From positions 85,669-149,668 of IMG/VR virus record IMGVR_UViG_3300005683_000050: a stretch of DNA of 64,000 nt; one strand, given 5' to 3'. Each line of letters starts with the position of its first letter. The first letter of the stretch is position 1. The translations under genes were made by a program, and so were the position numbers. Positions 987 to 31,322 of the stretch are shown piece by piece. Source of the stretch: a virus. Taxonomy: Duplodnaviria; Heunggongvirae; Uroviricota; Caudoviricetes. Below the pieces are notes generated by a model, which saw only the letters and a list, made by a program, of their open reading frames with translations, searched no databases and was not told the DNA's origin.

Positions 987-1732
987 ACCGTAACCTTTTT
1001 ATAGTGCATCAGCATCAATTCTACATCTGGGTCGAGCTGTTTCACATACCTTAATTGACCCATATCGTTTACAGCTCCAGTGTCTTGAAATCCCTGTTGC
1101 CCACGCTTGAACCACCTAGACGCCTGAATAATGCAAGCTTGCTTAATATCATCTGGTACTGCTGCGCTAAATCCAAATTTTCCCACAACCCTAATCCCCT
1201 TCGGAAATGAATACCATAACTTATATGCGCCATACATCATATTTAGGTCAAGGCGCATATATGGAATTCCTTCCGATGGCGCATTGTATGGCCAACAAAA
1301 ATAATCCGCAACAGAGAGTGATGTGTAATTGTTTATGTCTCCCGTCAGTGCCATCGCCACACTTGTTGGGGATGTCGCAATCTCTCCAATCCACAGCTGG
1401 CTACTTGGAGTTCTCAATCCTCCAAGTCTATTGCTATAGTATCCCTCATAACTATTCCCAATTTGGCTAACCTGCTTCATCGGCCCATCAAAATAATACG
1501 TTGAATCGGCGTCTACGTAGTAAGCTCCAGGCTTCCTTCCAGTCCACTTGTCAACAACGCGACTAGCCCGCGATGCTAACAGGGAGAGAATTGAATCATA
1601 CGTAGTTCCCCAGTTGCCATCAGGCATCATTTCTTTAATTTCACTTGCGGTACAATAGTTATTTGGCATAAAAAAACCACACTCACGACTGACGCTCGTG
1701 AGTGTGGCGTTCCACTGAAACATATTATACAA
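983..1732 (-). CDS. hypothetical structural-module protein 249 aa
   Basis: minus ORF; position between glycosylation cassette and head-tail genes. Confidence 0.45.
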   Translation of the reverse strand: MYNMFQWNATLTSVSRECGFFMPNNYCTASEIKEMMPDGNWGTTYDSILSLLASRASRVVDKWTGRKPGAYYVDADSTYYFDGPMKQVSQIGNSYEGYYSNRLGGLRTPSSQLWIGEIATSPTSVAMALTGDINNYTSLSVADYFCWPYNAPSEGIPYMRLDLNMMYGAYKLWYSFPKGIRVVGKFGFSAAVPDDIKQACIIQASRWFKRGQQGFQDTGAVNDMGQLRYVKQLDPDVELMLMHYKKVTV

Positions 1733-1747
1733 CAGTCGGGGGCGATT

Positions 1748-2581
1748 CTAAATGAATTTAGACAATGTGACTGCTACAAAAATCAAACATCCAGCAAAAA
1801 CCCTACTTTCGGCTGCCCTTGCCATTGTCCATCCAGCAACCAATAAGGCAATTGCATACAGTCCATACACCTGAGGGTTAACGATAAAGCAAAAAATTGT
1901 CAGAAATGTAATTATCATTGCCATAACGATTTCAGATAAGAATAAAGGACTATTCTTTAGTGAAACCATTATGTCGTGCCAGTTTACATTCCACATAAAT
2001 CTGGGACAGTACAATTCCCTCTTTCCGACATACATTCTCACACCAAGCATACTAACAGCGCATAAAATAGCTCCAACAATGGATATATATATGTCGCCAG
2101 TAACCGCGAAAAATATAAGCGGTGCAAGTGGTGCTGTCTCCTTTGACAATGCCCACAGTATAGTGCCTGATATAAAGAGATATGGATTGCCACTCATTGC
2201 ACCAACAATCCCAATTGCCTCAAATGCCCAATCCCAATAATCAAAAAAGAACGTAGATGTAATTATGGCAGCAAAGATTAAAGCAGCGACAGTGCCAAAA
2301 AAATAGTTTAGTATTGCCAAAATTGCAAACAAACTAATTAATTTTAGCGGTTCATATACATGTCCAACGGGACGGAATTCTCGAATAATGGGAATCTTGC
2401 GTAATAGGACAAATACCCAGGGGACTAATACTCGGTAAGCCATTGGAGCGGCAGCGTTACGTTCATTGACATCTGTAATTGCGCCATATCCATTGTACTT
2501 TGAACTATACGAATCCTTACCAATTAAAAGCTGCGCTCTGTCCAGAATGACTGCTATTACAAACAAGAAAATGTATATCAT
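1748..2581 (-). CDS. polytopic integral membrane protein (Wzy/O-antigen-ligase-like or GT-C-like)
   Basis: 277 aa with about 9 hydrophobic segments; overlaps GT gene by 4 nt (operon). Confidence 0.5.
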   Translation of the reverse strand: MIYIFLFVIAVILDRAQLLIGKDSYSSKYNGYGAITDVNERNAAAPMAYRVLVPWVFVLLRKIPIIREFRPVGHVYEPLKLISLFAILAILNYFFGTVAALIFAAIITSTFFFDYWDWAFEAIGIVGAMSGNPYLFISGTILWALSKETAPLAPLIFFAVTGDIYISIVGAILCAVSMLGVRMYVGKRELYCPRFMWNVNWHDIMVSLKNSPLFLSEIVMAMIITFLTIFCFIVNPQVYGLYAIALLVAGWTMARAAESRVFAGCLIFVAVTLSKFI

Positions 2582-3312
2582 CCTATGTTAATTCCCATAC
2601 TCGGTATTGCAATACTATTCGACGGTGGATTTGCTTTATCGGATTCAACTGCAACCATTTCTGGGTGTGTATCCACATAGTACCTAAAATCCTTTTCGGT
2701 AATCATTCTATCTGTGATATGGGGACTGGTTGTTGTTGTATCCACCCATATCTTAATGCCCTTTTGTTTGCACTGTAAACTAAAATATATATCCTCAGAC
2801 TGAGACCCTTCTTCGGCATATCCGTAGGCGAAGTATGGTCTTTCTAGTTGGGGGAATACCTCTCTGGATATTAGAACGCATCCAAATCCAACAACGTCTG
2901 CTAAGCCAATTCCATTGTCCCACCGCAATGGAGCTGCAAGTTGTCCGTTTTCCATTTCCATATATACACACGGGTCATACGGGGCTGACCGTCTGAAATT
3001 TATTCCAGACACAATTTTCTTTTCTGGGTCATTGATAACCCATCTTGCCAGACGTTCAACCAGGTCTGGTGGATGAATGTGGTCGCTGTCCATCATTAAG
3101 ACATGTGTGAAGTCTGAATCCATGAAATCCTTTGCAATCTGATTTCTCGCCATATCCGTTCTGCCATAATTACCGCCGATATATCCATATCCCTTTTGCA
3201 AAATTGGAATTATTGACAAAAATGCTATGTCTCGGATATTGCGTTCTAGCGGAATCGCTATAGCAACATTTATCCCATTATTGAGTAGTTGTTCTCGTGT
3301 TGGTATATTCAT
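2578..3312 (-). CDS. GT-A fold glycosyltransferase (family-2-like)
   Basis: DSDH (DxD-type) motif, MMDSDHIHPPDLVERL; paralog of 4110-4793 (shared ...DTTTTSPHI...). Confidence 0.6.
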   Translation of the reverse strand: MNIPTREQLLNNGINVAIAIPLERNIRDIAFLSIIPILQKGYGYIGGNYGRTDMARNQIAKDFMDSDFTHVLMMDSDHIHPPDLVERLARWVINDPEKKIVSGINFRRSAPYDPCVYMEMENGQLAAPLRWDNGIGLADVVGFGCVLISREVFPQLERPYFAYGYAEEGSQSEDIYFSLQCKQKGIKIWVDTTTTSPHITDRMITEKDFRYYVDTHPEMVAVESDKANPPSNSIAIPSMGINIG

Positions 3313-3405
3313 TATTTATTTGTCGAAGAAACAGCTCTTGGCTATTTATATGTGGTATGTTCTGCGACATTCCTTTCTAACTGTATTATACATTATGAAA
3401 ATAAA

Positions 3406-4083
3406 CTATTTTTCAATTATTCCTATTTCTGACGGCATGGACTCCACTGTAATAATAGCGTCTCCTCCATCGGAAAATAGAGACGTAAAGTCTGCAATAG
3501 ACATTTTGAATGTGCCACTCTTTCCCCACGCATCTCCCCAGCTATTTACAAATTCCATCAATCCAGTATACTTGTCAACTCCATTTATCAAATATGCGTG
3601 TCCTCCAACAATCTCTCCCATCGGAAAGACCAGTCCATCTGCATTTGGATGATTCATTGACTCATACCAATTTGTACCAACAGATATTGGGCCAGTTGTC
3701 AAAATCCAGTTAATAATATCGGAAACTTTTTCTGAACCATTAAATAAGGCATAGTGCTTTATTCTGCCGCGCTGTTGTAGTGCCTTAGCTCCGTTACGAA
3801 TCGTAGTCCCTATTTCCTTAGCTTCTGACCCACTAATTTCAACCGCTTCATAATAAATAGAATGACCATCTGCGTCTTCATATAGAGTTTTCATTGGCAA
3901 GCATCTGCAAAAATGAGCCATTGAAAATCCAACACAATGCTGCGTGTCACCCTGATTTAGAATCTTGTCTACGCTCCAATGTCTTGATATGACGCGGGAC
4001 GAAGACAGGATTTTCTCTTTGGTCAAATACAGGGACGCATTATAGTCCCTACTATCTATCTCATTAGGAATTCTTCCAAACAT
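3406..4083 (-). CDS. papain-like cysteine peptidase (C1 family)
   Basis: QGDTQHCVGFS (Gln/Cys), GGHAYLINGV (His), NSWGDAWG (Asn-Ser-Trp) catalytic signature. Confidence 0.65.
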   Translation of the reverse strand: MFGRIPNEIDSRDYNASLYLTKEKILSSSRVISRHWSVDKILNQGDTQHCVGFSMAHFCRCLPMKTLYEDADGHSIYYEAVEISGSEAKEIGTTIRNGAKALQQRGRIKHYALFNGSEKVSDIINWILTTGPISVGTNWYESMNHPNADGLVFPMGEIVGGHAYLINGVDKYTGLMEFVNSWGDAWGKSGTFKMSIADFTSLFSDGGDAIITVESMPSEIGIIEK

Positions 4084-4109
4084 TTGAACCCCCTCCCGTC
4101 ACTAAAATA

Positions 4110-4793
4110 CTATTCGGCATATATCTCTTCTGGGTTTTCAATTGAGTGTTTTTTATAAAAAGACTGGTCAATTAGATTTACCCCAATATGCGGACTTGTT
4201 GTGGTTGTATCACACCAAATATCTATTTTGCGGTCTTCACACAACTTACTGAAAAACATATCCTCTCCAGGAAAGTTGTCTTCCCTGTCGTAAACTGTCT
4301 GAAACCAGGGGTCTGGTATTAGGTCGAATACGCTCCTTGAAAAAGAAACACATCCGAACCCAATCGCATCTACTTTGGCAAGTCCATCTCCCCAGTTCGC
4401 TACAGCATGAAGTAACCCATCACTCATCCTCAAATACGCACACGCATCATATGGATGGGCGCGCTTGAAGTTTAGTCCACCAACAACCAATCTGGACAAA
4501 TCTTCTTCTTGCCATCTTGTCAGACGTTGTACAATATCCACTGGGTGAACGTGGTCTACATCCAACATGACCAGATGGGTATAGTCGGTTTGCATCAGAA
4601 ACCTTGCCAGTCTGTTTCGATTTACATCACACCTGCCATAAGGAAGTGGAATCAAAGGAGCTCCAGAATATACTGCTATCTCCCAGAACCGAATGAACGC
4701 AATGTCTGTTACGGTTCGTTCCATCGGAATACCTATAAGCGGCTTTACTTTCTTACTTTCCATTGTTTTTTCTCGTAAATTTTGAATACACAA
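4110..4793 (-). CDS. GT-A fold glycosyltransferase, paralog
   Basis: DVDHVHPVDIVQRL DxD-type motif; homologous to 2578-3312. Confidence 0.6.
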   Translation of the reverse strand: MCIQNLREKTMESKKVKPLIGIPMERTVTDIAFIRFWEIAVYSGAPLIPLPYGRCDVNRNRLARFLMQTDYTHLVMLDVDHVHPVDIVQRLTRWQEEDLSRLVVGGLNFKRAHPYDACAYLRMSDGLLHAVANWGDGLAKVDAIGFGCVSFSRSVFDLIPDPWFQTVYDREDNFPGEDMFFSKLCEDRKIDIWCDTTTTSPHIGVNLIDQSFYKKHSIENPEEIYAE

Positions 4794-5577
4794 ATCCTAA
4801 TCGAGTCAACTCGCCACTTTCATCGAGTAGCGGCAAGTATCCATTGCTTCCACCATTTCCATCTCTATTGTTTGCCACATAGAAAGCAAAACGAGTAAGG
4901 TTTTCGGATAGGTACTTATTGTTCACCAATCGCCTTAAGTACCTTACACATTTGCCGTAATCTGGATATTCAAAGTATCCCTCGTATCCAAATTCAGACA
5001 TCCACAGTTCTTTGTCGCCAACTCCGTTTTCTGTCATCCATCGTCTTAATTTTCTGACATACTCAACCAGATACTTAACGCTCCACCTAATTTTAGGGTC
5101 ATCACTGCGCCATCTTGGGTACAGGTGACAGTGAAATCCAGTGGTCATATCTTTGTATTCTTGCGGAAAAAATTTCCACAAAGCGTCTATGAAATTATTT
5201 TGACTGTGTGGGTTGTACGGTAACTGTCCCTGCGTAGAACAGGTTACGATGAATTTTGCGTTTGCATCAAATGTCTTAATGTATTTCATTTGGGACATAA
5301 ATATGTTCGCTATTTCTGGGATTGGACGGTAATTGTCCCAGTCGGTGTGAGGCTCGCTTCCGATTAGCCAGTTCCCCTTGTAACTTTCCCATTTCGTGAA
5401 TCTGCTCCACGATTCATTTGGAGAGAATTCAAATGTCAGGGGAACAAATTCGACACCAGTTGGCAGTAAGAGCATTTCGTCAGACATGGCATTCTGAAAT
5501 ACACCATAAGCCCACTTTCCGCCTAATTTTTCGAGACTGTTATTTGCTTGTCCAGCACAGTACCCAGAAATAAACAT
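4753..5577 (-). CDS. glycoside-hydrolase-like TIM-barrel protein (clan GH-A-like)
   Basis: LIGSEPHTDW (acid/base-like xEP) and WMSEFGYEG (nucleophile-like) motifs typical of GH5/26/113-type enzymes. Confidence 0.4.
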   Translation of the reverse strand: MFISGYCAGQANNSLEKLGGKWAYGVFQNAMSDEMLLLPTGVEFVPLTFEFSPNESWSRFTKWESYKGNWLIGSEPHTDWDNYRPIPEIANIFMSQMKYIKTFDANAKFIVTCSTQGQLPYNPHSQNNFIDALWKFFPQEYKDMTTGFHCHLYPRWRSDDPKIRWSVKYLVEYVRKLRRWMTENGVGDKELWMSEFGYEGYFEYPDYGKCVRYLRRLVNNKYLSENLTRFAFYVANNRDGNGGSNGYLPLLDESGELTRLGFVYSKFTRKNNGK

Positions 5578-5638
5578 ACTTATACCTCACAATAAATAAA
5601 GACACCCTTACGAGTGTCTTTATTATATCACAAACTTG

Positions 5639-6019
5639 TTATACCTGTCGTCTTTCGACCAACAGCATAACTCCAACGTCGAAAACTGGGGATGTTCCAG
5701 CGAGTGTCGCAATTGCGCGGACATATCGCTTGTTTGTGCGGAAGTGAATCTCTTCGTTTCCAGTCGTTGTCAGCTGCGTAAATGCCGCACCAGTAATATC
5801 GGTGTACGATGCAGTACTGTCCGCTTCTTGGATTTTAACGTCCATCGTTGGGGATGTGCCGCTTACGCCCGTTGCTGAAATAAAAGCCTTCATCATGCGA
5901 CCACCAGGATTGATGTATCCCTTTAGGTCAACATCACTACCAGTTGCAGAGGCAGACTTGCGAGCTGCAACGAACAGCTCGACAATCTTCATATTGGATT
6001 GTGTAGACATATAATTCAC
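5639..6019 (-). CDS. hypothetical capsid-associated (decoration?) protein 126 aa
   Basis: immediately downstream of MCP and its terminator hairpins; Thr/Ser/Gly-rich. Confidence 0.3.
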   Translation of the reverse strand: MNYMSTQSNMKIVELFVAARKSASATGSDVDLKGYINPGGRMMKAFISATGVSGTSPTMDVKIQEADSTASYTDITGAAFTQLTTTGNEEIHFRTNKRYVRAIATLAGTSPVFDVGVMLLVERRQV

Positions 6020-6085: not shown

Positions 6086-6092
6086 AAAATGC

Positions 6093-6120
6093 CGTAGAAC
6101 TTTTAGCAGCTCTACGGCAG
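6093..6120 (-). terminator. post-MCP hairpin (partial terminator/attenuator)
   Basis: GCCGTAGA-N11-TCTACGGC followed on the minus strand by ATTTTCT. Confidence 0.4.
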
Positions 6121-6205: not shown

Positions 6206-7225
6206 TTATGTAGAAACCTTCTGTACGCGTGTTCTCCAGCTTTCAACCAACTGACCACCAACGCGCTTGCGGGCGAGCAAGAGGGTCACGTTTGTTTCGG
6301 CATAGATTTCGCTCAGGCGTTGTACGCTCAAGCCTACGCGGTCACAAATCATGTAACCATTCAAGTCACCAAACAACAATGGATAGGCGTTAGCGGCAAT
6401 GTCTGGCGCGAATTCGTCAATCTGGATTGGCTTACCCTTAATGTTGTCAAACTGTGGTGTTGCCAAAGAACCATTGACTAGCGATGAAATAATGTATCGG
6501 TTCTGTGAATCCTTCAGTTTCTCAATTGCCTTTTGGGTAGCACTGTTCATGTACCACTTTGCCTTTGCTCGATACTGCGCTGGCAATCCAAAGTACAAGT
6601 CAAGAATACCGTCTGCGGTCAAAGCTGAACCGCTACCAGACACAATGCTCGCTGGGCCATCGCCATCAACCTGCGACAACAGACCCATTGGGCGAGCTGC
6701 GCCGTTACCGTTCAGGAACGCATCATCTTCGCCAAGCGCAAATGCTTCTGCAATCAAGTCAGACGAAATACCAACAACATCAAATGCAGAATCTTCAATC
6801 AAGTCATTGCTAACTGGCATTGAAGCCATCGCCGTGTGTACTGGAATAACGTACAGACCGAAAACTGGGTCAGTGACGCGGTGTGTGGTTGAAGACGCTG
6901 GTGATTCACCAGTCCATGTCAAGCGCACACCTGAGGTATACTTGTCGTCGGTTGTGTACTTTACGCGTGGCCACTTTGCAACATCACGTGAGGTTTGGAC
7001 AACGCGCGCGTTTGGACGAATCGCGGTCAAACCAGCAACCTTCTTGATTAATTCGACGTGATAATCTTCTGGAACTAAAACTACGCAGTGTTCCAAACTT
7101 TCGTTTGGGTATGGACTATATCTTAACGAGTCTTTAGCGCATTCTGCTGTTTCAACTTTTGCATTACTGCATCTCGTTTTTCGCGTGTAGTCTCTGAAGC
7201 TCCCGTTGCTTGTAATGCCCTGCAT
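6206..7225 (-). CDS. major capsid protein, HK97 fold (true start probably TTG near 7096)
   Basis: C-terminal ...TADGILDLYFGLPAQYRAKAKWYMNSATQ... typical HK97-family MCP; the first 100 nt of the track ORF overlap the upstream endonuclease gene. Confidence 0.75.
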   Translation of the reverse strand: MQGITSNGSFRDYTRKTRCSNAKVETAECAKDSLRYSPYPNESLEHCVVLVPEDYHVELIKKVAGLTAIRPNARVVQTSRDVAKWPRVKYTTDDKYTSGVRLTWTGESPASSTTHRVTDPVFGLYVIPVHTAMASMPVSNDLIEDSAFDVVGISSDLIAEAFALGEDDAFLNGNGAARPMGLLSQVDGDGPASIVSGSGSALTADGILDLYFGLPAQYRAKAKWYMNSATQKAIEKLKDSQNRYIISSLVNGSLATPQFDNIKGKPIQIDEFAPDIAANAYPLLFGDLNGYMICDRVGLSVQRLSEIYAETNVTLLLARKRVGGQLVESWRTRVQKVST

Positions 7226-7719
7226 TGCTCGACTATATCTAACTCCCTTTTAGTGTATGGGTGTATTTTTCTCTGCCCCATCCCACCGTAATTCGGATTT
7301 TCAAGACCTTCGTTTTTCTTTCTGAGGTCTATAAATTCCATCATTAGTCTAGCTCTCTGCTTTTTATTACCAACCAGATACGGTTCTATCTTTGGAAGTA
7401 TCTTTAATAGATTGGTCATATTTTTGGTAGCGCATTCGTGAACTGGTCGGTTGATTCCCTTTTGGAGTCTAGTCCGCATATACGGGTTGATTCCCATTTT
7501 TCTGAATATATCTTCCGATTTGGCGATTATTTCTGGGTCTGTATTCACTATGCGTAGTTCGCATTTTACCTGCGTGCCGTTTGCTCGGCGCGGGTCTGTG
7601 AAAACAGTAAACCCTAACCATCCTTCGCCATCTACAATTCCCGCTACCCATCCAAGCTCATACTCGGTTGCCTGCTGATTGTCCATTTTACTATCCTTTC
7701 GTTTGTTGCCTAGAAGCAC
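7123..7719 (-). CDS. free-standing LAGLIDADG homing endonuclease
   Basis: LGWVAGIVDGEGWLGF motif; inserted between scaffold and MCP genes. Confidence 0.55.
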   Translation of the reverse strand: MLLGNKRKDSKMDNQQATEYELGWVAGIVDGEGWLGFTVFTDPRRANGTQVKCELRIVNTDPEIIAKSEDIFRKMGINPYMRTRLQKGINRPVHECATKNMTNLLKILPKIEPYLVGNKKQRARLMMEFIDLRKKNEGLENPNYGGMGQRKIHPYTKRELDIVEQCRALQATGASETTREKRDAVMQKLKQQNALKTR

Positions 7720-7817
7720 GATTGGCTCTTAGGAGTTTCCAGCATTTAGCGAAATTTAAGGTGAACTTTTGTTCCCTTAGATTATCATATTTAATTTTTA
7801 AGTCTTACTTTACTTAC

Positions 7818-8303
7818 TTATGCCCAACCTGCATATTGGGTTAATCCACCAGCCGTATCAACGCCTTCGCTCAAGGCCTTGCGGTCATTCGGGCCTAGTT
7901 TTTCTTTGCCATTGCGGATGTACGCTTCAAAAGCAACATCGTATCCCTTTTGCTGAACAGCCAGTGGAATGTGATAGCGCAATTCCTTTTCGCCGTTTGC
8001 AGTCATAACCTTCATAGAACGCCATGACTTTGCGTCAATCGGGAAGTTTCCTTCGTCTGCGGCAGACTGTCTCCATGAGACCTGCGAAACCGATGGCTCG
8101 CTAGCTCCCAAGAATTCATCGCCACTTTCGATACGCTGTGCAAGATTTGCCTTAGCAATCAACGTATCGTACTCGCCCAGTAGTCTTTGGACGTTACCTT
8201 CTTGTTCTGCGGTAATGGCATCACCCGCCTCGAACATAATCTTTTTTGCTTCGGCGTGCTTTGACGTAGCTTCCGCCATCAGCTCTCTTCGTGTCTTAGC
8301 CAT
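7818..8303 (-). CDS. putative scaffolding protein (162 aa from ATG 8303)
   Basis: ATG 8301-8303 with AGGAG SD; charged helix-rich N-terminus; the track start at 8417 overlaps the protease gene. Confidence 0.4.
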   Translation of the reverse strand: MAKTRRELMAEATSKHAEAKKIMFEAGDAITAEQEGNVQRLLGEYDTLIAKANLAQRIESGDEFLGASEPSVSQVSWRQSAADEGNFPIDAKSWRSMKVMTANGEKELRYHIPLAVQQKGYDVAFEAYIRNGKEKLGPNDRKALSEGVDTAGGLTQYAGWA

Positions 8304-8313
8304 AAATCTTCTC

Positions 8314-9474
8314 CTAAATATGTAATGCTCGTTCGCGTATTGCGATTTCGAGTGCCAAACGACGAGAAGAAGTGAGTGCGTTTGCGATAGTATCGAGAGA
8401 GTAGGTCTCAACGACATTTTCTGTCATATCATCCTCATCTGGTTCTACCTCTATCTGCGGCTCGGCTTCTAGCAAAACATCTGTAAGCACAGAAATTGCG
8501 TCTTTCAATCTTGCCAAGTTGCGTTCCGACAAAACCCTGCCTACCTTAAATTCTTCAATTGTCAACAGGCTAGTTAGGTTGGCAAACTCAACAACGTGCC
8601 AAGATGGAGACTCTTTACCGAACTGACTGAAATGTTTTGCAAGGTGATTGTATACACCCTGCTTGTCACTATCTGTCAAAGACTTACCAGAGTCCTTCAT
8701 CAATGCGGTCATAGCTGCATTTACTCCGTCCCATATGGCAAGTCCAATGCCAGACTTTGATGGAATGTGGTGTGGGAATTGCAAATCCTCAAACGCGGAC
8801 GGTATCTCTTTTCCAGACCATCCGTAGTGTTCTGAGATTCTAATCTTTTCACCGTCATCTAAGTCTGACCATTCTTTTTCTGTAAAATCGCTCAACACTG
8901 GAGGATTCATTTTTACTGTAGTATCTGGTTCAAATCCAGTGTCTTTGAAATCAATTGCGGCTGACTTTATCAAAACCCTTGCGGCATCGTTCATCCCCCA
9001 GTTCACTGGAGAAATATCCCATAGTCGGCACTCTCTGATATTTCTGATATTAACTGTTTTTCCGTCAATACTATGTGGGGCATAGTCGTATTTGATTGCC
9101 TCAAACCCAATAGAGTTTTCGGTAATTGCGCCTTCTTTGATGCCAGTCAATACTTCATTGCCGCGCGGTGTGTTTATGTACTTTACAACACCGAGTAATC
9201 CACCCATTGCATCTGGGAATTGACCCAGATAACTATCTGGTAGCTGCTCTCTCGATATTTCCCGCAGCTCCACTGGGACTCCAATTGGAGGAGACATGGT
9301 ATCGTGTTGCCACAAAACCTTTACCCTATCCGCGCGTTCCAAAAGCGTCTTAGTAAACGCTCCGAGCAACATACGGTCTAGCGCATTATCAATATGTCCA
9401 GCAACAGAATACAGAGACGTTACTTCTCTATCTTCCGATGCAATGACTTTACTTTGAAAGTTTTTATACTCCAT
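8314..9474 (-). CDS. prohead protease (HK97/S78-like) with long C-terminal extension
   Basis: N-terminal ...RVKVLWQHD... protease-family motif; position between portal region and scaffold/MCP. Confidence 0.55.
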   Translation of the reverse strand: MEYKNFQSKVIASEDREVTSLYSVAGHIDNALDRMLLGAFTKTLLERADRVKVLWQHDTMSPPIGVPVELREISREQLPDSYLGQFPDAMGGLLGVVKYINTPRGNEVLTGIKEGAITENSIGFEAIKYDYAPHSIDGKTVNIRNIRECRLWDISPVNWGMNDAARVLIKSAAIDFKDTGFEPDTTVKMNPPVLSDFTEKEWSDLDDGEKIRISEHYGWSGKEIPSAFEDLQFPHHIPSKSGIGLAIWDGVNAAMTALMKDSGKSLTDSDKQGVYNHLAKHFSQFGKESPSWHVVEFANLTSLLTIEEFKVGRVLSERNLARLKDAISVLTDVLLEAEPQIEVEPDEDDMTENVVETYSLDTIANALTSSRRLALEIAIRERALHI

Positions 9475-10429: not shown

Positions 10430-12160
10430 TTACACCTTTACTATCTCTATACCGTATTCTACATGTTGCTTCAGTGGCAGTCCTAGACCCCTTACCTCAC
10501 AATCGCCTACTCGAATTGAATACGGCCCAACCTGACCGCGTTGCGGGTCAAAACTCGAATCTCCAGACATGTCGAAATCAACCATTCCGTTCCGAGTGTG
10601 GTGAATTGCCTTGTCGTCAGGCCAAACCTGAGTCACTGGGACTTTCCATAGTAACTTTCCATTTCCATCTGAAACGGAAACCATAATCTTAACTCCGCCC
10701 TGAGACTCTGGATAGTCTACTGGCTTATTATCATAAAAGTGAACAGCCGAGACCTTATACCCACTTCCCTGTGTAACGCTGACCCACGTTAGACGCTTGT
10801 CTACTTCAACCATCCACTCTTCAGACTTAACAGTGACTTGCCCCTTTACAATTTCACCGAAGAAACTTCCGCTATAGTCTCTCAATTGACCTTCAAAACG
10901 ATACACACCGTCTCGGAATGGAGCTGAAATCATTAAATTAAATCGGTATGACTCATTTGGTTTCACTTCCGAGTTGGAAGGGACTGCCTGCCATGATATT
11001 TCATTGTTGGATGTCGGACTTAGAGCGACATTGCCCCATGCAACATTACCAGTATTGGTCATAGATACCATACTAGCAACGGTTTCCCCTGTCCACACAG
11101 TTGACGGTACGCCGTATAACTCTAGCTCTGCATCATACTCAACTCCAGACGGTGGAGGCGGAACGTCGCTGTCTTCCCAACCAAACTGCCTAATATAAGG
11201 CAAGTCCATTTCCATCTTCTGAATAAGGTCTGATTTGAAAACGTTTGGATTTGAATGTTCGTCGGCATGAGCTGGGTCAGAGTGTAAACCATCAACCCAT
11301 GAATCAGAATACCAGTTTCCAGCCCACAAAAGCCACGGACACACAGCAAATAAATAGTCTGGTAATCTCTCTCCATTACTTAATTTGCCGACCCTAAACC
11401 ACTCATACATTTCGTAATGCCAGTCAATCCACTTCTCAATTGATACCTCTGGCATACTGGTATCGTCGTGATTCTTGAATAACCAGCCACCCTCTCCTCC
11501 AATCATGGGCGGAATAATTCCGAGATGCTTTTCGCACCATCCAGCTATGGCTATAAACCTCAAAACAGCTGTGTCGTCTTCATACACATTGCTTGATGGG
11601 TATGGATAAATTGGCGGATGATTTGCCCCGTAGTTGTGCAAAGAGAAGTACATTTTGTTTTTGACTTCTTTAGATACACCACTGACAGACGCCAAAAGCT
11701 CTTCCGACAATACTTGTAGTCCAGGAAATCCACCTCCACGTACAACGGCTTCTGCACGTTGACCCCATAGTGAAGCAAAATGTTCTGGACTATCGAATCC
11801 CTCTCTGCCATCCTCTGGTTCATTGAAGATTTGAATGTATGGCGGCACTCCGTTCTTTACAGATAGCTGCGCGAATTTTTCCCAAAAGTCTGGGGTCTTT
11901 GGTCGTTCTCCACTGGCATACACTCGCATATTAGAGAATATGCCAAAATTGTCTTTAAGATATTTTGCAACCCGTATACATTGTGCCTCATCCCCGCCAT
12001 ATACTGTAGCCCATTTTATTTTCATGCGCTTAAGATACGGTGCATAATGTTCCACAAACGGCTGGCGAGAATCTAGCACGAAATGAATCCCTCGTCCGTT
12101 ATCTCCCTCTGGACGCGGAAAGCTAGCCAAGTGACTATCTAGTGGTGATAATTGTGTCAT
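10430..12160 (-). CDS. GH5-like glycoside hydrolase with C-terminal beta-sandwich/carbohydrate-binding-like region
   Basis: IQIFNEPE (NEP acid/base) and MIGGEGGW (nucleophile-like) motifs in N-terminal ~330 aa; 576 aa. Confidence 0.5.
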   Translation of the reverse strand: MTQLSPLDSHLASFPRPEGDNGRGIHFVLDSRQPFVEHYAPYLKRMKIKWATVYGGDEAQCIRVAKYLKDNFGIFSNMRVYASGERPKTPDFWEKFAQLSVKNGVPPYIQIFNEPEDGREGFDSPEHFASLWGQRAEAVVRGGGFPGLQVLSEELLASVSGVSKEVKNKMYFSLHNYGANHPPIYPYPSSNVYEDDTAVLRFIAIAGWCEKHLGIIPPMIGGEGGWLFKNHDDTSMPEVSIEKWIDWHYEMYEWFRVGKLSNGERLPDYLFAVCPWLLWAGNWYSDSWVDGLHSDPAHADEHSNPNVFKSDLIQKMEMDLPYIRQFGWEDSDVPPPPSGVEYDAELELYGVPSTVWTGETVASMVSMTNTGNVAWGNVALSPTSNNEISWQAVPSNSEVKPNESYRFNLMISAPFRDGVYRFEGQLRDYSGSFFGEIVKGQVTVKSEEWMVEVDKRLTWVSVTQGSGYKVSAVHFYDNKPVDYPESQGGVKIMVSVSDGNGKLLWKVPVTQVWPDDKAIHHTRNGMVDFDMSGDSSFDPQRGQVGPYSIRVGDCEVRGLGLPLKQHVEYGIEIVKV

Positions 12161-13140
12161 ACTTTTAATTCCTTTGTTGTTAGAAACACATTTGCTCCGT
12201 CAGTGTATGCAATTGCGGCAATCTTATCTGAGCTGGCAATACTGGGAGACTGATTATTTAGTGAGTTATTTGAAATCAGTTTGGCGTTACTCCACTTCCC
12301 ATTCTTAAGGGAGATGGTGTATATTTTCCAGTTGTCGGTTGACACAGATTTTGCCTGAAAAGATACTTGTACAGCCCCTTCAAAAAATGCAACTCTAGGC
12401 CACATACTGTAAAGAAATGACGGGATAGTGCTACGCGAATCTGTAAATACCATTGTCTTGAAATCAGAGTATCTAGTCACCGCAAAAAACGGATTTCCAT
12501 ACTCGGTGTGGAATACATCTGGCGTCTGTTCCTTATGCCCGTCAGAAATCACAGACTCAACACCCCAAGTATTATTGACCGTATCGAATCTTATACTAAG
12601 AACTCCATATGGACTATTCTCGCTCCACACTATGTCAAGAAAGTTGTCTCGATATGAGATTCTTGGCATACTCCCGTCTCCAAACTTTACGGGAACATCC
12701 CAAGTTGCCCCGTTGTCTCTACTGGAAACCATATACACACCAGACGCTTGTCCTACTGGTCTAGATTGAAACACAACATATATGTTAGGCCCATCTGAAA
12801 CAATTTGCGGACACTCTGCATATGGCAAGCTGCCAGAAATCTTTTTTAGACTCCTACTTGGGGATAAGTATACAACAACATATCCCAGTGTGTCATGCTT
12901 GGATTCCCATACGATATGACGACTTCCGTTATGTGTTATGTCTGGGTAGTATCCGTGTCCAATAGATTCTCGTGTATTGTTTCCCTTACGGGACTCACAC
13001 TGCATTATATTGTCACCATCGTTCCACACAGAGAAAACCCTTCTGCCCCTTACACAGATAGAGATTTTACTATAGTGTCCTTCCCCAAGACTAACTGGCG
13101 AGTTCCATACCTTAAGCGCGTCAGATATTGCTCTTATCAT
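12157..13140 (-). CDS. BNR/Asp-box repeat beta-propeller protein (sialidase-like)
   Basis: SRDNGATWDV Asp-box (SxDxGxTW) plus repeated beta-strand-rich segments. Confidence 0.45.
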   Translation of the reverse strand: MIRAISDALKVWNSPVSLGEGHYSKISICVRGRRVFSVWNDGDNIMQCESRKGNNTRESIGHGYYPDITHNGSRHIVWESKHDTLGYVVVYLSPSRSLKKISGSLPYAECPQIVSDGPNIYVVFQSRPVGQASGVYMVSSRDNGATWDVPVKFGDGSMPRISYRDNFLDIVWSENSPYGVLSIRFDTVNNTWGVESVISDGHKEQTPDVFHTEYGNPFFAVTRYSDFKTMVFTDSRSTIPSFLYSMWPRVAFFEGAVQVSFQAKSVSTDNWKIYTISLKNGKWSNAKLISNNSLNNQSPSIASSDKIAAIAYTDGANVFLTTKELKV

Positions 13141-14443
13141 TTTGACTCTCCTCTTCCCCGCTTTGAGAATCTGATGAATTAGATTCTGGATTAACCTCTG
13201 GGCGTTGATTATCCATTGATACCTCTATGGTTCTCACGTTTCTAACATATACATCTCCGTCTGGTGTCTTTTCGAGACCCACTTCTTCGGCAAATTGATT
13301 TACTGTAATCGCTCCCTTTTCAAACGCGTTTGAAGCCCGCGCCCATCGCTTATCAATATCGTCCTGAAGTGCTGGAACTTTTGAGAAATCCCATTCCATG
13401 ATAACATTTAAGTCTTCATTCAGGTCGTTATTTATTTTATCAGAGATTCTCTTGTATTGTGGAGATAAGGTGTCCTGCCAAAACGCTTTTCTAGCAGCTT
13501 CATAATTGCTATAGGTTGACGCCTTTAACCCTATGCTTGCTCCGACCAAGATGGGAGGTGTTCTTAAACAGCTGCAAATTCTTGCCTCAGAACGAGCGTC
13601 CAGAAACTCAAATCCCATTTCTTCAAATGTCAAACCGATTTTCTGAAATTGTGCATCCGAGTCCAAAACTACTGGGTCTAGCCAATTTTCAAATCCACCG
13701 TATCGTTCCCTCCATCGAGAACGAATTTCCTCTACCTGAGACTCAATAAGCTTTTGCTTGGTTGTCAACATTCCTGGTGGAGTTCCACCCTTTTCAAAGA
13801 ACAGCTTTACAAAGTCAGTACTGGCATTGTCAACATCTCCCATCCGAGCTGCGACCTGAACGGGAGGAAGTCCATTATACATATTTGATGGGTCGAATAG
13901 CTTAAATTCAAGAATGCTGTCGGTTGGCATAACTATCGCTTGTAATCCAGGTGGGGCATAGCGGTATCCATCAATAAATGTTCCAGACGAACGTATCGGT
14001 GAAACCCAGTCTGGTCTCATAGGCCAAAGTTCTACTACTTTTCCAGACCTGTTTTTTACCTTTTCCCAGTAAGAGACTCCAGCTAAGTCCAAGTACATCA
14101 GTGTGGCACTGAAGAAGTCGAACTCTGTCATATATTTATTTGGTCGTTCTATCAACATACGAGTCGGATGGTTTTCTATAATGGCGCGTGAACGCCTGTC
14201 GCGCGCAACCAAACGTGGAATTGCTGCCGAATCCGCTTTTAAGGAAATACAGGCGAAAATTAGTTCGTTCTTTTTGAACCCATGCTGTACCGCATTCTCA
14301 AAATTCCATTTTTGGTACGATGGGGTCTGATTTGTCCATGAATTCAACATCGTAGATATTGCGTTCTGTTGCGTTGCCGCAGAACGCTTAAACGAAGAAC
14401 TGAATCCGCTTGCGAATCTGTCAAATATACTCATTAAAACCAA
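13121..14443 (-). CDS. portal protein (HK97-family-like)
   Basis: 440 aa, immediately downstream of TerL; acidic C-terminus; Phage_portal-like core. Confidence 0.7.
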   Translation of the reverse strand: MVLMSIFDRFASGFSSSFKRSAATQQNAISTMLNSWTNQTPSYQKWNFENAVQHGFKKNELIFACISLKADSAAIPRLVARDRRSRAIIENHPTRMLIERPNKYMTEFDFFSATLMYLDLAGVSYWEKVKNRSGKVVELWPMRPDWVSPIRSSGTFIDGYRYAPPGLQAIVMPTDSILEFKLFDPSNMYNGLPPVQVAARMGDVDNASTDFVKLFFEKGGTPPGMLTTKQKLIESQVEEIRSRWRERYGGFENWLDPVVLDSDAQFQKIGLTFEEMGFEFLDARSEARICSCLRTPPILVGASIGLKASTYSNYEAARKAFWQDTLSPQYKRISDKINNDLNEDLNVIMEWDFSKVPALQDDIDKRWARASNAFEKGAITVNQFAEEVGLEKTPDGDVYVRNVRTIEVSMDNQRPEVNPESNSSDSQSGEEESQNDKSNI

Positions 14444-16824
14444 ATCCCTCCCAAAGAACTATTTCCAGCAAGCTTCATATAAGCCCCACTACTTGCGTCT
14501 ACCATATCGTCGTGTACCCTCTTGTTTGGAAACAATTCGAGCTCTTGCAAATAATTTCGATTCCATCCAGCTTTAGCCAGATAAACATGTCGAGCCTCGC
14601 ACATCCCGCTAAACGGCTTTGCTCGGTGAACCTTTTGTCCAGTCATGCGAAAACCATCAAATATAAAATCTGGAAGAACATTTCTGCGATAGTGGTCAAT
14701 TACTGTCTTGCCACTTGCGCCAGGTTCTTGCTCGATATATATCTCTGTTTCATATCCATCTGCAACCGCGCATCTTTTAACCAGCTCTTCAACTTGGGAG
14801 GGAGTGCCTCGAAATTGCTGTACGTCCAGAATGTAAAATTCGTTTTGAGAAGATATTCCCATTAGCACTCCAGCTGTATAGTCGGGGTCGTTATTTCCAT
14901 AATCGGCAACTGTAGCAGCCAAGTCCCAATATCGAACTTTTCTAATAAGCGGAGGAAAGTTTTCAATTGGCGCGGTGTTCTGTCCGTCAAACCATTCCCT
15001 CTTAAACATCTCGCCTTGTTCTTCAATATCCCAGTCTCCAAACAAAAGCCTCGCTCTGGTTACTGGGTCTAACTCGGCAAGAAAACCAGCATATTCTTCT
15101 GCATTGATAGCTGGGTTGTCGTTGATAGTCGCTGGTATAAAGATGCGACCATTTGCGCGTCCCTCATCAATAAATCTCTTCTTGACCCAAACGTGACCTG
15201 GGCCACCAGGATTAGTAGCTGCCCGCATACGAAGCGGAACTTCAACGCCCTTAACGCGACGAATACGAGAAAACAGATATAAATACTGACTTTCTGTAAA
15301 CTGAGTCAATTCATCAAATCCGCAAAATTGTATTTCCGCACCCTGATAGCGCAGCTTATCTCTTTCACTCTCTAAGTATCCGAATGTTAGTGTTGCGCCA
15401 GAGGGAAAGGTGAACTGGTGCTTTTCCGAATCCCACCTTGCATCTGTTCCAGAAAGCCATTCAATCGCGCGAGACATAAGTGCTTGTGGCAACGAAAGGT
15501 CTCTGTAGGTTCTACGTAGTAAAAGAGCTGCGTATCCTGGTACGTCAACATATTGCAGGGCAGACATGAGAAGTGCGGAGCTGTTGTGCGTAACGATAAA
15601 GTCGTTTGTAAGATACATTCCGTTCGGATGGGAGACGGTTATACATCTTCCCCGCACAGTTCCGCCCTTTTCCACCCTAACAACCGCGCGGTATAGATTG
15701 TCGTCAACCTTACATCTTTCTGCCTTTCGCTTAATCCTAAACAGGGACGGCTCATTTCTATGTCTTATATATATCGTATAGGATAACCTTCCAAAGACCT
15801 TTTCTCCACTGGCGTCTCTATAGAATGGGTACTTTTCCGAAACAGTCGCAACCCCGCCCAGTGAGCGAACAATAAAACACACATCTTTGCACATTTGTTC
15901 GCTAGTTGTTGTGTAGTACACCTGCCCTCTTGCATCGGCAGTCCCATCAGTGTCTAGCAATCCTTGTAGTACGCTAAGTCTCGTTTTTACGCTTCCCATC
16001 AAAAACTCTCTGGGAACAAATTTTGTGTCCGATTTAGTTCCCATTAGTCCAAGTTTTTCTAGTTGAGACCTAACGGTTGACAAAGACTGTCCTTTGAGAA
16101 AGTACGAAAACTTACCGTCGTAGCGAAAGTCCATTCCCCTCAAAACGTTATCTCGAATGTGTTCGTGGTCATTCCCACTAATACTGACGGATTGACCAGA
16201 AATACATCCATCTCCCAGAATGTACCCCAACAGATACGGGTCTAGGTTGGATGGATTTCTGTTTGTTACGTTAAAAACTTGCTCGTGACACACTGGAATT
16301 AGAGGTCTTCTTGAAGAGCCATCGCGTTCGGAGCGAATCAGACTTTCGTCAGACCATTTCTTTAAGGTGAATGTATCTATTACCTGCGCGCTCTCCTCTC
16401 CAAACACTCTCTTGCCCTTTATCTTTTTCCCCTTACGCGCTCTCCAGCATACCCACAAATGCTCTCCGTTAACCTCTATTGAAGTTCCATCGTGAAAAAG
16501 TACCTTAAACTTTTCAAGTTCAAACACTGGATGGAGCTGTATTATCTTCGCAACCGTACCGTCTGGGTTATTTACAGCATCTCCAACGCGAAGGTCTTTT
16601 ATTTGCTTAAACCCAAACGGTGTCAGAACAAAGTCGTCAAGTTTTTGGCCTTTCCCGCCGCTTGCTGCGCCGCCAAATAGTACTTCCTTGTTTTGGGTCA
16701 ACAGAAACGCGGTTTGTTTGGGACTTGGTTTCTGAATGATGTACTTATTTAGTTTTGGAAAAAATTTGGTTACATCTATTTTGTCCCAATTGTCTCTAAT
16801 CGTTTCTGGGGTTATTATATTCAC
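14434..16824 (-). CDS. terL: terminase large subunit interrupted by an intein
   Basis: N-extein ends in FGGAASGGK (Walker A, completed by SS after the intein); C-terminal nuclease domain; 796 aa, of which about 355 are intein. Confidence 0.8.
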   Translation of the reverse strand: MNIITPETIRDNWDKIDVTKFFPKLNKYIIQKPSPKQTAFLLTQNKEVLFGGAASGGKGQKLDDFVLTPFGFKQIKDLRVGDAVNNPDGTVAKIIQLHPVFELEKFKVLFHDGTSIEVNGEHLWVCWRARKGKKIKGKRVFGEESAQVIDTFTLKKWSDESLIRSERDGSSRRPLIPVCHEQVFNVTNRNPSNLDPYLLGYILGDGCISGQSVSISGNDHEHIRDNVLRGMDFRYDGKFSYFLKGQSLSTVRSQLEKLGLMGTKSDTKFVPREFLMGSVKTRLSVLQGLLDTDGTADARGQVYYTTTSEQMCKDVCFIVRSLGGVATVSEKYPFYRDASGEKVFGRLSYTIYIRHRNEPSLFRIKRKAERCKVDDNLYRAVVRVEKGGTVRGRCITVSHPNGMYLTNDFIVTHNSSALLMSALQYVDVPGYAALLLRRTYRDLSLPQALMSRAIEWLSGTDARWDSEKHQFTFPSGATLTFGYLESERDKLRYQGAEIQFCGFDELTQFTESQYLYLFSRIRRVKGVEVPLRMRAATNPGGPGHVWVKKRFIDEGRANGRIFIPATINDNPAINAEEYAGFLAELDPVTRARLLFGDWDIEEQGEMFKREWFDGQNTAPIENFPPLIRKVRYWDLAATVADYGNNDPDYTAGVLMGISSQNEFYILDVQQFRGTPSQVEELVKRCAVADGYETEIYIEQEPGASGKTVIDHYRRNVLPDFIFDGFRMTGQKVHRAKPFSGMCEARHVYLAKAGWNRNYLQELELFPNKRVHDDMVDASSGAYMKLAGNSSLGGIWF
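15583..16650 (-). mobile_element. intein with LAGLIDADG homing-endonuclease domain inside the terL P-loop
   Basis: Hint block A-like KLDDFVLTPFGFKQIKDLRVGD; LAGLIDADG blocks LLGYILGDGCI and LQGLLDTDGT; C-terminal IVTHN followed by +1 Ser; the exact N-terminal junction is uncertain (no Cys/Ser at residue 1). Confidence 0.6.
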
Positions 16825-30986: not shown

Positions 30987-31322
30987 CTACTGGACTAGCC
31001 ATCCAAAGTTATATCCGTATATACTGACCCCACTGATACGACTGAAGTGCATTCGCCTCATAGTGTCTACTCTAAAATCGCAAACAATAATTCTGTCGTT
31101 CAGTTCGACCACAACACCTTCATGCGCCCTATAAGACCCGCGCATCGTTGAGTCAATAATCGGCATTTGTCTCGCAACAACATCTCCGACCACGAGACTT
31201 TCGAGCCATGCGGTTCGAGATAAATCTGTTTTGGCGGGAATTGCTGGATTAGCGATTTCGCATTGTTTCATCTTTGCATTCAGAACAACATTCCTGTCCG
31301 CACAAAACAGGAATGTTGTCAA
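30987..31322 (-). CDS. hypothetical protein 111 aa
   Basis: minus ORF. Confidence 0.3.
   Translation of the reverse strand: MTTFLFCADRNVVLNAKMKQCEIANPAIPAKTDLSRTAWLESLVVGDVVARQMPIIDSTMRGSYRAHEGVVVELNDRIIVCDFRVDTMRRMHFSRISGVSIYGYNFGWLVQ

What the first reader, a model, noticed from the sequence alone, without database searches (positions are those of the whole stretch)
1748..5577. Glycosylation cassette embedded in the head/head-tail structural module
A five-gene cassette sits directly downstream of the capsid and decoration genes and upstream of head-tail genes. It comprises two paralogous GT-A glycosyltransferases (DSDH/DVDH), a papain-like C1 peptidase, a GH-A-clan hydrolase-like protein and a 9-TM membrane protein. 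Its placement and co-transcription with virion genes suggest virion protein glycosylation, as reported for some actinophage capsids. Alternatively it could modify host surface polysaccharide during release or superinfection exclusion. A C1 peptidase in this context is unusual.
Basis: partly seen in the sequence, partly recalled or inferred. Interest (0 to 1): 0.7.

Follow-up and report, generated by a model that had tools for sequence, protein, structure and literature searches.

The report
Capsid-decoration-linked GT-A/GT-C phage glycosylation module
An uncultured ~150-kb phage carries, right after its capsid and capsid-decoration genes, a sugar-transferase cassette whose conserved core (decoration protein, soluble transferase and a tiny membrane transferase of a previously undescribed family) recurs in many unrelated phages and most likely sugar-coats the virus particle.

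Summary
Five minus-strand genes fill 1748-5577:
- a GH128/Glyco_hydro_cc-like hydrolase
- GT-A #2
- a papain-type C1 peptidase with Q/C/H/N intact
- GT-A #1, 40% identical to #2, with a DxDH motif
- a polytopic membrane protein

In 20 distinct loci this GT-C nearly always has a GT-A of the same family beside it, often translationally coupled. In 14 of the 20, a BPP-1-type capsid cement/decoration protein lies directly upstream, across two unrelated capsid lineages. The closest relative has only Dec-GT-A-GT-C. The hydrolase, the peptidase and the second GT-A are therefore add-ons.

Best reading: glycosylation of the virion, with Dec as the likely acceptor.

A puzzle remains, because classical GT-C enzymes act outside the cytoplasm. 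Here 178 of 180 family members carry almost all their K/R on the conserved face, while a cellular homolog shows the opposite bias. This suggests an inverted, cytoplasm-facing GT-C.

Host-envelope modification is the main rival. All of this is inference from sequence; nothing was tested experimentally.

The parts
5639..6010 (-). Capsid cement/decoration protein (Dec, 123 aa). It is the first gene of the conserved Dec-GT-A-GT-C triad and the proposed glycan acceptor.
   Evidence: A family profile hits the BPP-1 cementing protein 3J4U_H (E=2e-5) and the capsid decoration protein 8CJZ_B (E=3e-3). It matches phrog_5707. Family members lie directly upstream of GT-A in 14 of 20 GT-C loci. RBS AGGTG precedes the ATG at 6010.
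5591..5629 (-). Terminator-like hairpin between Dec and the first cassette gene. An extended -10-like TGATATAAT overlaps its 5' side.
   Evidence: RNA fold -17.5 kcal/mol, z=-5.3, 0 of 200 shuffles as stable. Promoter-like match at 5651-5622.
4753..5577 (-). GH128/Glyco_hydro_cc-like clan GH-A glycoside hydrolase (274 aa). An accessory gene, not part of the conserved triad.
   Evidence: Homologs occur in other phages without the GTs. Absent from the closest relative L020.
4110..4763 (-). GT-A glycosyltransferase #2 (217 aa from the ATG at 4763; motif MLDVDH), a paralog of #1.
   Evidence: 40% identity to #1. Hit by the GT-A family profile at 2.5e-94. Start position as called on the source contig.
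3406..4083 (-). Papain-family (C1) cysteine peptidase, mature-domain only (225 aa). An accessory gene.
   Evidence: Pfam PF00112 above its cut-off; phrog_16701 at 1e-35. Cathepsin B hits in PDB. Catalytic Q, C, H and N conserved. Homologs in actinophages, for example in the Mufasa8 lysis cassette.
2578..3312 (-). GT-A glycosyltransferase #1 (244 aa; motif MMDSDH). Its stop overlaps the GT-C start (ATGA).
1748..2581 (-). Minimal GT-C-fold membrane glycosyltransferase (277 aa, about 10 helices), from a family with no Pfam model.
1676..1708 (-). Strong intrinsic-terminator-like hairpin (13-bp stem plus T7) directly after the GT-C gene, before the probable start of the adaptor gene.
   Evidence: -24.7 kcal/mol, z=-5.0.
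6090..6119 (-). Terminator-like hairpin after the major capsid gene (context).
   Evidence: -21.6 kcal/mol, z=-5.7.

Best explanation
The region is a composite cassette. Its conserved core is a three-gene module: a capsid cement/decoration protein (Dec), a soluble DxDH GT-A glycosyltransferase, and a minimal GT-C-fold membrane glycosyltransferase translationally coupled to it.

The module most likely glycosylates the outside of the virion. Dec is the prime acceptor; in some relatives the tail tube may also be one.

Proposed course, all inferred:
1. Newly made Dec monomers meet the GT-A/GT-C pair at the inner face of the cytoplasmic membrane.
2. GT-A uses a nucleotide sugar.
3. GT-C uses a polyprenyl-phosphate-linked sugar taken before it is flipped.
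4. The second GT-A paralog extends or diversifies the glycan.
5. Glycosylated Dec then binds the expanded capsid.

The GH128-like hydrolase and the C1 peptidase are later insertions. They probably act on the host envelope, or trim glycans, and are not part of the core mechanism.

Shown by computation: the folds, the catalytic motifs, the gene linkage and the charge bias. Inferred: the acceptor, the donors, the membrane orientation and the timing.
For: 1. Linkage
- GT-C loci carry a GT-A of the same family in 16 of the 17 loci clustered, and again in L033, L035 and L036.
- Start and stop codons of the pair overlap in the window and in several other loci.
- Dec lies directly upstream in 14 of 20 distinct loci, although these use two unrelated capsid families and range from 43% GC in the window to 62% GC in L036.
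- Searching from the Dec side, 5 of 5 IMG/VR loci carry the pair.

2. Closest relative
- L020 (capsid 58% identical) has exactly Dec-GT-A-GT-C-adaptor.

3. The GT-A looks like a protein or glycan glycosyltransferase
- It resembles viral and protein- or glycan-directed GT-As: A197, R699, Mnn9 and collagen GalT. It does not resemble polyprenyl-phosphate sugar synthases.
- The family also sits in structural-module cassettes that contain only cytoplasmic enzymes: Methyltransf_24, MptE/Maf-like, NTP_transf_3 and GT2.

4. Cytoplasmic partners
- Genes found beside or between the pair encode cofactor-dependent cytoplasmic tailoring enzymes: SAM methyltransferases in L002 and L003, and a sulfotransferase in L024.
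- In L023 and L025 the intervening genes encode soluble 153-aa proteins that resemble tail tube proteins by eye only; Pfam gave no hit.
- No GtrA-type flippase was found in these loci. The one small multi-TM ORF (L002) has no Pfam match.

5. Charge bias
- All invariant polar residues lie on one face of the GT-C. That face holds a mean of 14.5 K/R, against 1.1 on the other face, in 178 of 180 members.
- A cellular homolog, P0259, next to a T2SSF gene, has the reverse bias.

6. Precedent
- Mycobacteriophage GT and O-methyltransferase cassettes glycosylate capsid and tail tube proteins (Freeman et al. 2023, as summarised in PMC11600133).
Against: - Every characterised GT-C enzyme acts on the extracytoplasmic face, whereas virions assemble in the cytoplasm.
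- The inverted orientation rests only on the positive-inside rule.
- No acceptor site is demonstrated.
- Six of the 20 loci lack a detectable Dec.
- The site between head and neck genes is a common place for mobile genes to insert.
- Hairpins on both sides of the cassette could make it a separately regulated moron.
- The canonical acidic residue of GT-C loop EL1 is not conserved.
Confidence: 0.5

Rival explanations
1. Host-envelope modification, Gtr-like logic. The GT-C sits in the classical orientation and transfers a sugar from a host (or GT-A-made) polyprenyl-phosphate donor onto a cell-surface polymer or surface protein. This would mask the receptor late in infection, giving superinfection exclusion or preventing progeny from adsorbing to debris. 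On this view the GH128-like and C1 enzymes also act on the envelope, and the position next to Dec is just a permissive insertion site.
For: - The GT-C fold; all characterised members work outside the cytoplasm (established knowledge).
- Phage GtrABC modules are a known precedent, for example CPS-53 yfdGHI.
- The cassette is bracketed by terminator-like hairpins, like a moron.
- The GH128-like and C1 genes occur in or beside lysis-type gene regions in other phages.
Against: - The module sits in head, neck or tail-tube gene clusters and never next to the integrase/att region in the loci examined. In L004 an integrase lies about 9 kb away, at the far end of the tail/lysis region.
- Linkage to Dec is tight across two unrelated capsid types.
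- The K/R bias predicts that the conserved face is cytoplasmic.
- The family is essentially absent from bacterial genomes: 1 MAG contig among 185,579 species genomes. It is therefore not a typical lysogenic-conversion gene.
Confidence: 0.28
2. There is no joint function. The interval is a pile-up of independent mobile genes at a hot spot between head and neck genes: a GT pair of one function, plus a glycanase and a cysteine peptidase that serve lysis or depolymerisation.
For: - The closest relative lacks GH, C1 and the second GT-A.
- GH128-like homologs occur alone at tail-module ends or next to an M23/SH3 lysin.
- The C1 homolog in Mufasa8 lies within the lysis cassette.
- The window's homing-endonuclease-bearing insertions in the capsid and terminase genes show active gene mobility in this region.
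Against: - This accounts for the accessory genes only. It does not explain the conserved Dec-GT-A-GT-C linkage.
- It is compatible with the best explanation rather than an alternative to its core.
Confidence: 0.12
3. DNA hypermodification: the GT-A enzymes glycosylate hydroxymethylated bases in phage DNA.
For: Phage GT-A and GT-B enzymes that glycosylate 5hmC are widespread (bioRxiv 10.1101/2023.12.21.572611).
Against: - No thymidylate-synthase-like hydroxymethylase or 5mYOX was seen among the window proteins scanned.
- A membrane GT-C cannot reach DNA.
- The linkage is to capsid genes, not to nucleotide-metabolism genes.
Confidence: 0.02

Closest known systems
Mycobacteriophage virion glycosylation cassettes (Che8, Corndog and cluster O; Freeman et al. 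2023, cited through PMC11600133)
   Same: Phage-encoded tandem glycosyltransferases modify exposed virion proteins (capsid and tail tube). Relatives of the present module also carry a methyltransferase next to the GTs.
   Different: - No membrane GT-C partner is mentioned in the summaries of those cassettes that I could read (the primary paper was not held).
- No sequence relationship was found: the GT-A family is absent from actinophage records.
- In Corndog the GT genes are not among the features annotated between 20 and 50 kb, which span the capsid, tail and lysis genes.
- The acceptor proposed here is a separate cement protein.
STIV A197 (PDB 2C0N) and other viral GT-A enzymes (mimivirus R699; PBCV-1 A064R, PDB 2P6W)
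   Different: 17% identity. A197's acceptor is itself unproven. Those are archaeal and eukaryotic viruses. No GT-C partner is described for them, to my knowledge.
GtrABC / three-component seroconversion systems (e.g. E. coli CPS-53 yfdG-yfdH-yfdI; Shigella and Salmonella phages)
   Same: Phage-borne, and they combine a GT-A-fold enzyme with a GT-C-fold membrane transferase.
   Different: - No GtrA flippase.
- The GT-A is soluble and not GtrB-like.
- The GT-C is 277 aa, against 443 aa for YfdI, and lacks large loops.
- The module lies in head, neck or tail-tube gene clusters, not beside the integrase.
- The charge bias is opposite.
GT-C superfamily (AglB/PglB oligosaccharyltransferases, PMTs, ArnT, PimE, ALG and PIG mannosyltransferases)
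   Different: - No detectable sequence similarity to any solved GT-C and no Pfam model.
- The EL1 catalytic Asp is not conserved.
- Predicted to face the cytoplasm.
Bordetella phage BPP-1 cementing protein (3J4U chain H) and related capsid decoration proteins (8CJZ_B)
   Same: The Dec family profile matches both (E=2e-5 and 3e-3), with similar length and the same gene position right after the capsid gene.
   Different: Low identity. Whether BPP-1 carries a GT pair was not examined directly; the GT-C family has no match in any cultured-phage record. The Dec family here has Ser/Thr-rich loops and one invariant Thr.

Membership tests
GT-A fold glycosyltransferases (GT2-like) | Rossmann-like GT-A fold | tested here: met
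GT-A fold glycosyltransferases (GT2-like) | DxD metal- and nucleotide-sugar-binding motif | tested here: met
   D75-x-D77-H78 is invariant in 40 homologs. The window copies read DSDH and DVDH.
GT-A fold glycosyltransferases (GT2-like) | Pfam GT2-type model above its gathering score | tested here: not met
   18.6-20.5 bits against cut-offs of 23.3-27 for copy #1; no hit for copy #2. The proteins are GT-A by fold but not members of a curated GT2 Pfam family.
GT-C fold glycosyltransferases | Polytopic core with the GT-C helix arrangement | tested here: met
GT-C fold glycosyltransferases | Conserved catalytic Asp/Glu in the first extramembrane loop | tested here: inconclusive
   No invariant acidic residue lies in loop 21-70. 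The invariant or near-invariant acidic residues are D114, E121, E148 and E258, in other loops on the same face.
GT-C fold glycosyltransferases | Active face on the extracytoplasmic side | tested here: not met
   Positive-inside analysis: the conserved face holds 14.5 K/R against 1.1 on the opposite face, in 178 of 180 members. The cellular homolog P0259 is reversed. This is a prediction only, from secondary-structure boundaries.
GT-C fold glycosyltransferases | Polyprenyl-phosphate-linked sugar donor | not testable with these tools
   Needs biochemistry.
Peptidase family C1 (papain) | Catalytic Cys and His, with the oxyanion Gln and orienting Asn | tested here: met
   Q44, C50, H162 and N180 (plus W182) align with papain and are invariant in three phage homologs.
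Peptidase family C1 (papain) | Pfam PF00112 above its gathering score | tested here: met
   26.8 bits against 20.7.
Peptidase family C1 (papain) | Inhibitory propeptide or secretion signal | tested here: not met
   The protein starts at the mature-domain motif (IPNEIDSRDY). The phage homologs likewise have no N-terminal extension.
GH128 / Glyco_hydro_cc (clan GH-A) | Family profile match | tested here: met
   The window protein alone is sub-threshold (17.7 against 21 bits). Five of nine homologs carry PF11790, and the family profile hits Glyco_hydro_cc structures 6UAV and 6UAW at about 2e-7 and 8J3X at 3e-10.
GH128 / Glyco_hydro_cc (clan GH-A) | Two catalytic glutamates (the NEP acid/base and the nucleophile after strand 7) | tested here: met
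   E75 (in G-S/N-E-P) and E195 (in W-x-S-E-F-G) are invariant in 11 sequences. Assigning them to catalytic roles is by analogy.
GtrABC seroconversion module | GtrA flippase, GtrB-type membrane-anchored Und-P glycosyltransferase, and a location beside the integrase/att site | tested here: not met
   No GtrA-type flippase was detected in any of the 20 loci; the single small multi-TM ORF (L002) has no Pfam match. The GT-A is soluble and not DPMS/GtrB-like. The module lies in structural gene clusters.
BPP-1-type capsid cement/decoration proteins | Sequence-profile relationship and a gene position directly after the major capsid gene | tested here: met
   3J4U_H at E=2e-5 and 8CJZ_B at E=3e-3. Position shown.
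Phage virion glycosylation systems (mycobacteriophage type) | Glycan demonstrably attached to virion proteins | not testable with these tools
   Needs virions or heterologous co-expression plus mass spectrometry.

The most novel reading that the evidence does not exclude
The 277-aa protein represents a family of inverted GT-C glycosyltransferases whose catalytic face looks into the cytoplasm. It would take polyprenyl-phosphate sugars before they are flipped and, together with its coupled GT-A, glycosylate a capsid cement protein at the inner membrane surface. That would be the first cytoplasm-facing GT-C, and the first membrane-dependent route to a glycosylated phage capsid.
Probability: 0.35. 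Interest if true: 0.9.

Novelty: new variant of a known kind. Interest (0 to 1): 0.72.

Why it matters
Phage virion glycosylation is known from a few mycobacteriophages, where it is reported to weaken the neutralising-antibody response. This analysis shows a different module (Dec, GT-A and GT-C) that is widespread among uncultured phages of several morphotypes. That suggests sugar-coated capsids are more common than cultured collections imply.

Tried and rejected
- Megablast of 12 kb against cultured phages: no match.
- IMG/VR scan with the C1 peptidase: nothing.
- NCBIfam on eight proteins: nothing useful.
- GT-C profile against PDB sequences: only a spurious 22-residue fibrillarin match.
- Pfam on 40 distant GT-C members: isolated weak EpsG and GT87 hits only.
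- BFVD fold search: one weak hit, to an uncultured-phage protein.
- The afdb50 library was unavailable.
- tblastn of the GT-C against 50,697 phage records: no match.
- GTDB genome scan: one MAG contig only.
The role of the GH128-like and C1 genes in lysis therefore stays open.
- The GH128-like protein and the 576-aa protein at 10430-12160 are not paralogs.
- The hydropathy-only topology control on E. coli ArnT and YfdI missed helices, so only its first loops are informative: cytoplasmic short loops are K/R-rich and the short periplasmic loop has none.
- The Corndog 20-50 kb region contains no annotated GT genes, so there is no positional parallel.
- The Freeman et al. paper is not held, so it is cited only through papers that summarise it.
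- DNA glycosylation was rejected.
- A GtrA-like flippase between the GT genes was looked for and not found.
- The promoter scan gave no more sites than the shuffled controls.


Full report
**Observation**

The window is part of a 149,834-bp metagenomic contig (ENA ERZ761584 NODE_4). It comes from a long-tailed phage with about 43% GC, and all genes lie on the minus strand.

In transcription order the region reads:
- large terminase, 14434-16824
- portal, 13121-14443
- two unassigned proteins
- S78 prohead protease, 8314-9474
- major capsid gene, whose two parts are separated by an endonuclease-bearing insert
- a 123-aa protein, 5639-6010
- the five genes of the finding
- a head-tail adaptor, from about 1669/1723 down to 983

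Downstream on the contig follow a probable tail tube gene and a 1493-aa tape measure gene.

**The five genes**

- GH-like (4753-5577). Alone it gives a sub-threshold Glyco_hydro_cc hit. Its homologs, 50-59% identical, carry PF11790. A profile of the family hits Glyco_hydro_cc structures (6UAV and 6UAW at about 2e-7; 8J3X at 3e-10). Both clan GH-A glutamates are invariant: E75 in the NEP-like motif and E195 in SEFG.
- C1 peptidase (3406-4083). It passes the Pfam cut-off and keeps Gln, Cys, His, Asn and Trp at the papain catalytic positions. It has neither a propeptide nor a signal peptide.
- The GT-C family. An exhaustive profile search found 305 cluster representatives, nearly all 260-300 aa. 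None is recognised by Pfam. None occurs in 50,697 cultured-phage records. Only one MAG contig among 185,579 species genomes has it.

**What is conserved around it**

I examined 20 distinct loci that carry the GT-C.
- A GT-A of the same family is present in 16 of the 17 loci clustered, and also in L033, L035 and L036. It usually lies directly upstream with overlapping stop and start codons. In the window the overlap is ATGA at 2578-2581.
- Neighbour proteins were then clustered. The small protein that follows the capsid gene forms one family, and it sits immediately upstream of the GT-A in 14 of the 20 loci.
- These 14 loci use two unrelated capsid families: the window's PF05065 type, and a GP7-like type in podovirus-like contigs with an SU10-type adaptor.
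- They also differ widely in base composition, from 43% GC in the window to 62% GC in L036.
- A profile of this small protein matches the cementing protein of Bordetella phage BPP-1 (3J4U_H, E=2e-5) and a capsid decoration protein (8CJZ_B, E=3e-3).
- Searching IMG/VR from the Dec side (podovirus-like subgroup) returned five loci. All five carry GT-A and GT-C.
- The closest relative of the window phage is L020 (protease 55%, capsid 58%, Dec 44%, adaptor 46% identical). It has exactly Dec-GT-A-GT-C-adaptor. The GH128-like gene, the C1 peptidase and the second GT-A are therefore accretions in this phage.

Consistent with that, the two hydrolases occur independently elsewhere:
- GH128-like homologs lie at the end of a tail module (L016) and next to a large sugar-biosynthesis cluster (L017). 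A more distant Glyco_hydro_cc protein sits beside an M23/SH3 lysin (L004).
- C1 homologs lie in the Mufasa8 lysis cassette and after the terminase gene of Wakanda.

**Other partners**

- Genes found beside or between the pair encode cytoplasmic, cofactor-dependent tailoring enzymes: Methyltransf_24 in L002 and L003, and a sulfotransferase in L024.
- In L023 and L025 the intervening genes encode soluble 153-aa proteins that look like tail tube proteins, followed by chaperone-like ORFs. This is by eye only; Pfam gave no hit.
- The GT-A family also occurs without the GT-C, in structural-module cassettes made only of cytoplasmic enzymes: methyltransferase, MptE/Maf-like, nucleotidyltransferase and GT2 (L009 and L011). 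In L009 it lies next to a weak Dec match.
- No GtrA-type flippase was found in any of the 20 loci. The one small multi-TM ORF (L002) has no Pfam match.

**Topology puzzle**

Classical GT-C enzymes use lipid-linked sugars on the outer face of the membrane, whereas capsids assemble in the cytoplasm.

- I took helix boundaries from the model's secondary structure. On that basis every invariant polar residue (R50, D114, E121, E148, T149, Y191, N200, E258, R260) falls on one face.
- In 178 of 180 full-length members that face carries a mean of 14.5 Lys+Arg, against 1.1 on the other face. This holds even where the loops of the other face are 7-12 residues long.
- By the positive-inside rule the conserved face should be cytoplasmic.
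- The clearest exception is P0259 (356 aa). It has a K/R-rich N-terminus and K/R-rich loops on the opposite face (15 against 8), and it is encoded in a cellular context beside a T2SSF gene. Its orientation looks classical.
- In E. coli ArnT the first loops behave classically: the N-terminus and the first cytoplasmic loop are K/R-rich, and the short periplasmic loop has none.

This is a prediction, not a measurement. I had no coordinates, several helices are short, and GT-C loops can bind phosphates through basic residues.

**Transcription**

Three stable terminator-like hairpins were found, each with no shuffle of 200 folding as well:
- after the capsid gene, 6090-6119
- after Dec, 5591-5629, overlapped by an extended -10-like TGATATAAT
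- after the GT-C gene, 1676-1708, a 13-bp stem plus T7

The cassette may be read through from the head operon or may be a separate unit. Co-transcription is not shown.

**Interpretation**

The best-supported reading (confidence 0.5) is virion glycosylation, with Dec as the main acceptor. The coupled GT-A/GT-C pair would carry it out at the inner membrane face. The second GT-A would diversify the glycan, and the two hydrolases are accessory genes.

The main rival (0.28) is late receptor masking or envelope modification by a classically oriented GT-C. It is weakened by five points:
- the absence of a flippase
- the GT-A not being GtrB-like
- the placement in structural gene clusters
- the linkage to Dec
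- the charge bias

A 'pile of unrelated morons' reading (0.12) explains only the accessory genes. DNA glycosylation (0.02) has no support.

**Comparison with known systems**

- Mycobacteriophage cassettes of tandem GTs plus an O-methyltransferase modify capsid and tail tube proteins (Freeman et al. 2023, as summarised in PMC11600133). The present module works like that but is unrelated in sequence. It adds a membrane GT-C and is tied to a cement protein.
- It is not a Gtr module (see the membership table).
- The GT-C fits the superfamily by fold only.

I rate it a new variant of a known kind. If the inverted orientation is confirmed, the enzyme itself would be categorically new.

Noticed in passing
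window 24536-61651 (- strand): 45 tRNA genes, all on the minus strand and covering nearly all amino acids, interspersed with small ORFs. The same region holds RtcB (31319-32533) and an RNA ligase (59356-60354), which suggests tRNA repair or replacement as a counter-defence.
   Followed up: partly
window ~7079-7841 (- strand): The major capsid gene is interrupted. The N-part ORF is 7818-8417 and the C-part is 6206-7096; between them lies a LAGLIDADG-type endonuclease ORF (7123-7719). The relative L020 has the two parts contiguous. Rfam gives two sub-threshold group I intron matches inside the insert (E=5e-4 and 1.5e-3). The ORFs are not in one frame, so this is an intron rather than an intein.
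   Followed up: partly
window 14434-16824 (- strand): The large terminase is 796 aa. It has LAGLIDADG_3 and Hom_end domains at residues about 270-355, upstream of the Terminase_6N match. This is probably an intein.
   Followed up: no
Dec alignment A5 (L004, L006, L007, L021, L022, L028; window 5639-6010): In the podovirus-like Dec subgroup the invariant Thr lies in an invariant G-A-N-D-T motif, an N-x-T sequon. The top structural match of the GT-C is the archaeal oligosaccharyltransferase AglB. The window Dec has T-S-P-T at that position, so only the Thr is universal.
   Followed up: no
L031 2226-3296 (P0259): A 356-aa cellular homolog of the phage GT-C, next to a T2SSF gene, has the opposite Lys/Arg bias to 178 of 180 family members. 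This may be a pair of oppositely oriented subfamilies.
   Followed up: partly
L024 7252-7947: A sulfotransferase gene (Sulfotransfer_3, E=1e-7) lies between GT-A and GT-C, and its end overlaps the GT-C start. The glycan in that phage may be sulfated.
   Followed up: no
L017 1-10000: A 61-kb phage contig carries a large sugar-biosynthesis cluster directly upstream of its GH128-like gene: a DegT aminotransferase, an epimerase/dehydratase, a formyltransferase, a radical SAM enzyme, and GT1 and GT4 enzymes.
   Followed up: no
window 10430-12160 (- strand): A 576-aa protein of unknown family lies between the portal and protease genes, with a weak Ig-like match at residues 358-444. Its N-terminal half has NEP-like motifs by eye, but it is not a paralog of the GH128-like gene.
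   Followed up: partly
window 27709-28698 and 52946-54952 (- strand): A cytidylyltransferase-like/NUDIX fusion (NadR-like) and a class II (B12-dependent) ribonucleotide reductase, plus two DNA methylases (34525-35553 and 51979-52998).
   Followed up: no
L004 1-6985 and L007 1-7065: The podovirus-like contigs that carry the triad encode giant proteins (4062 and 5244 aa) just upstream of the scaffold and capsid genes. The L007 protein has ParB, DEAD/ResIII and helicase domains.
   Followed up: no
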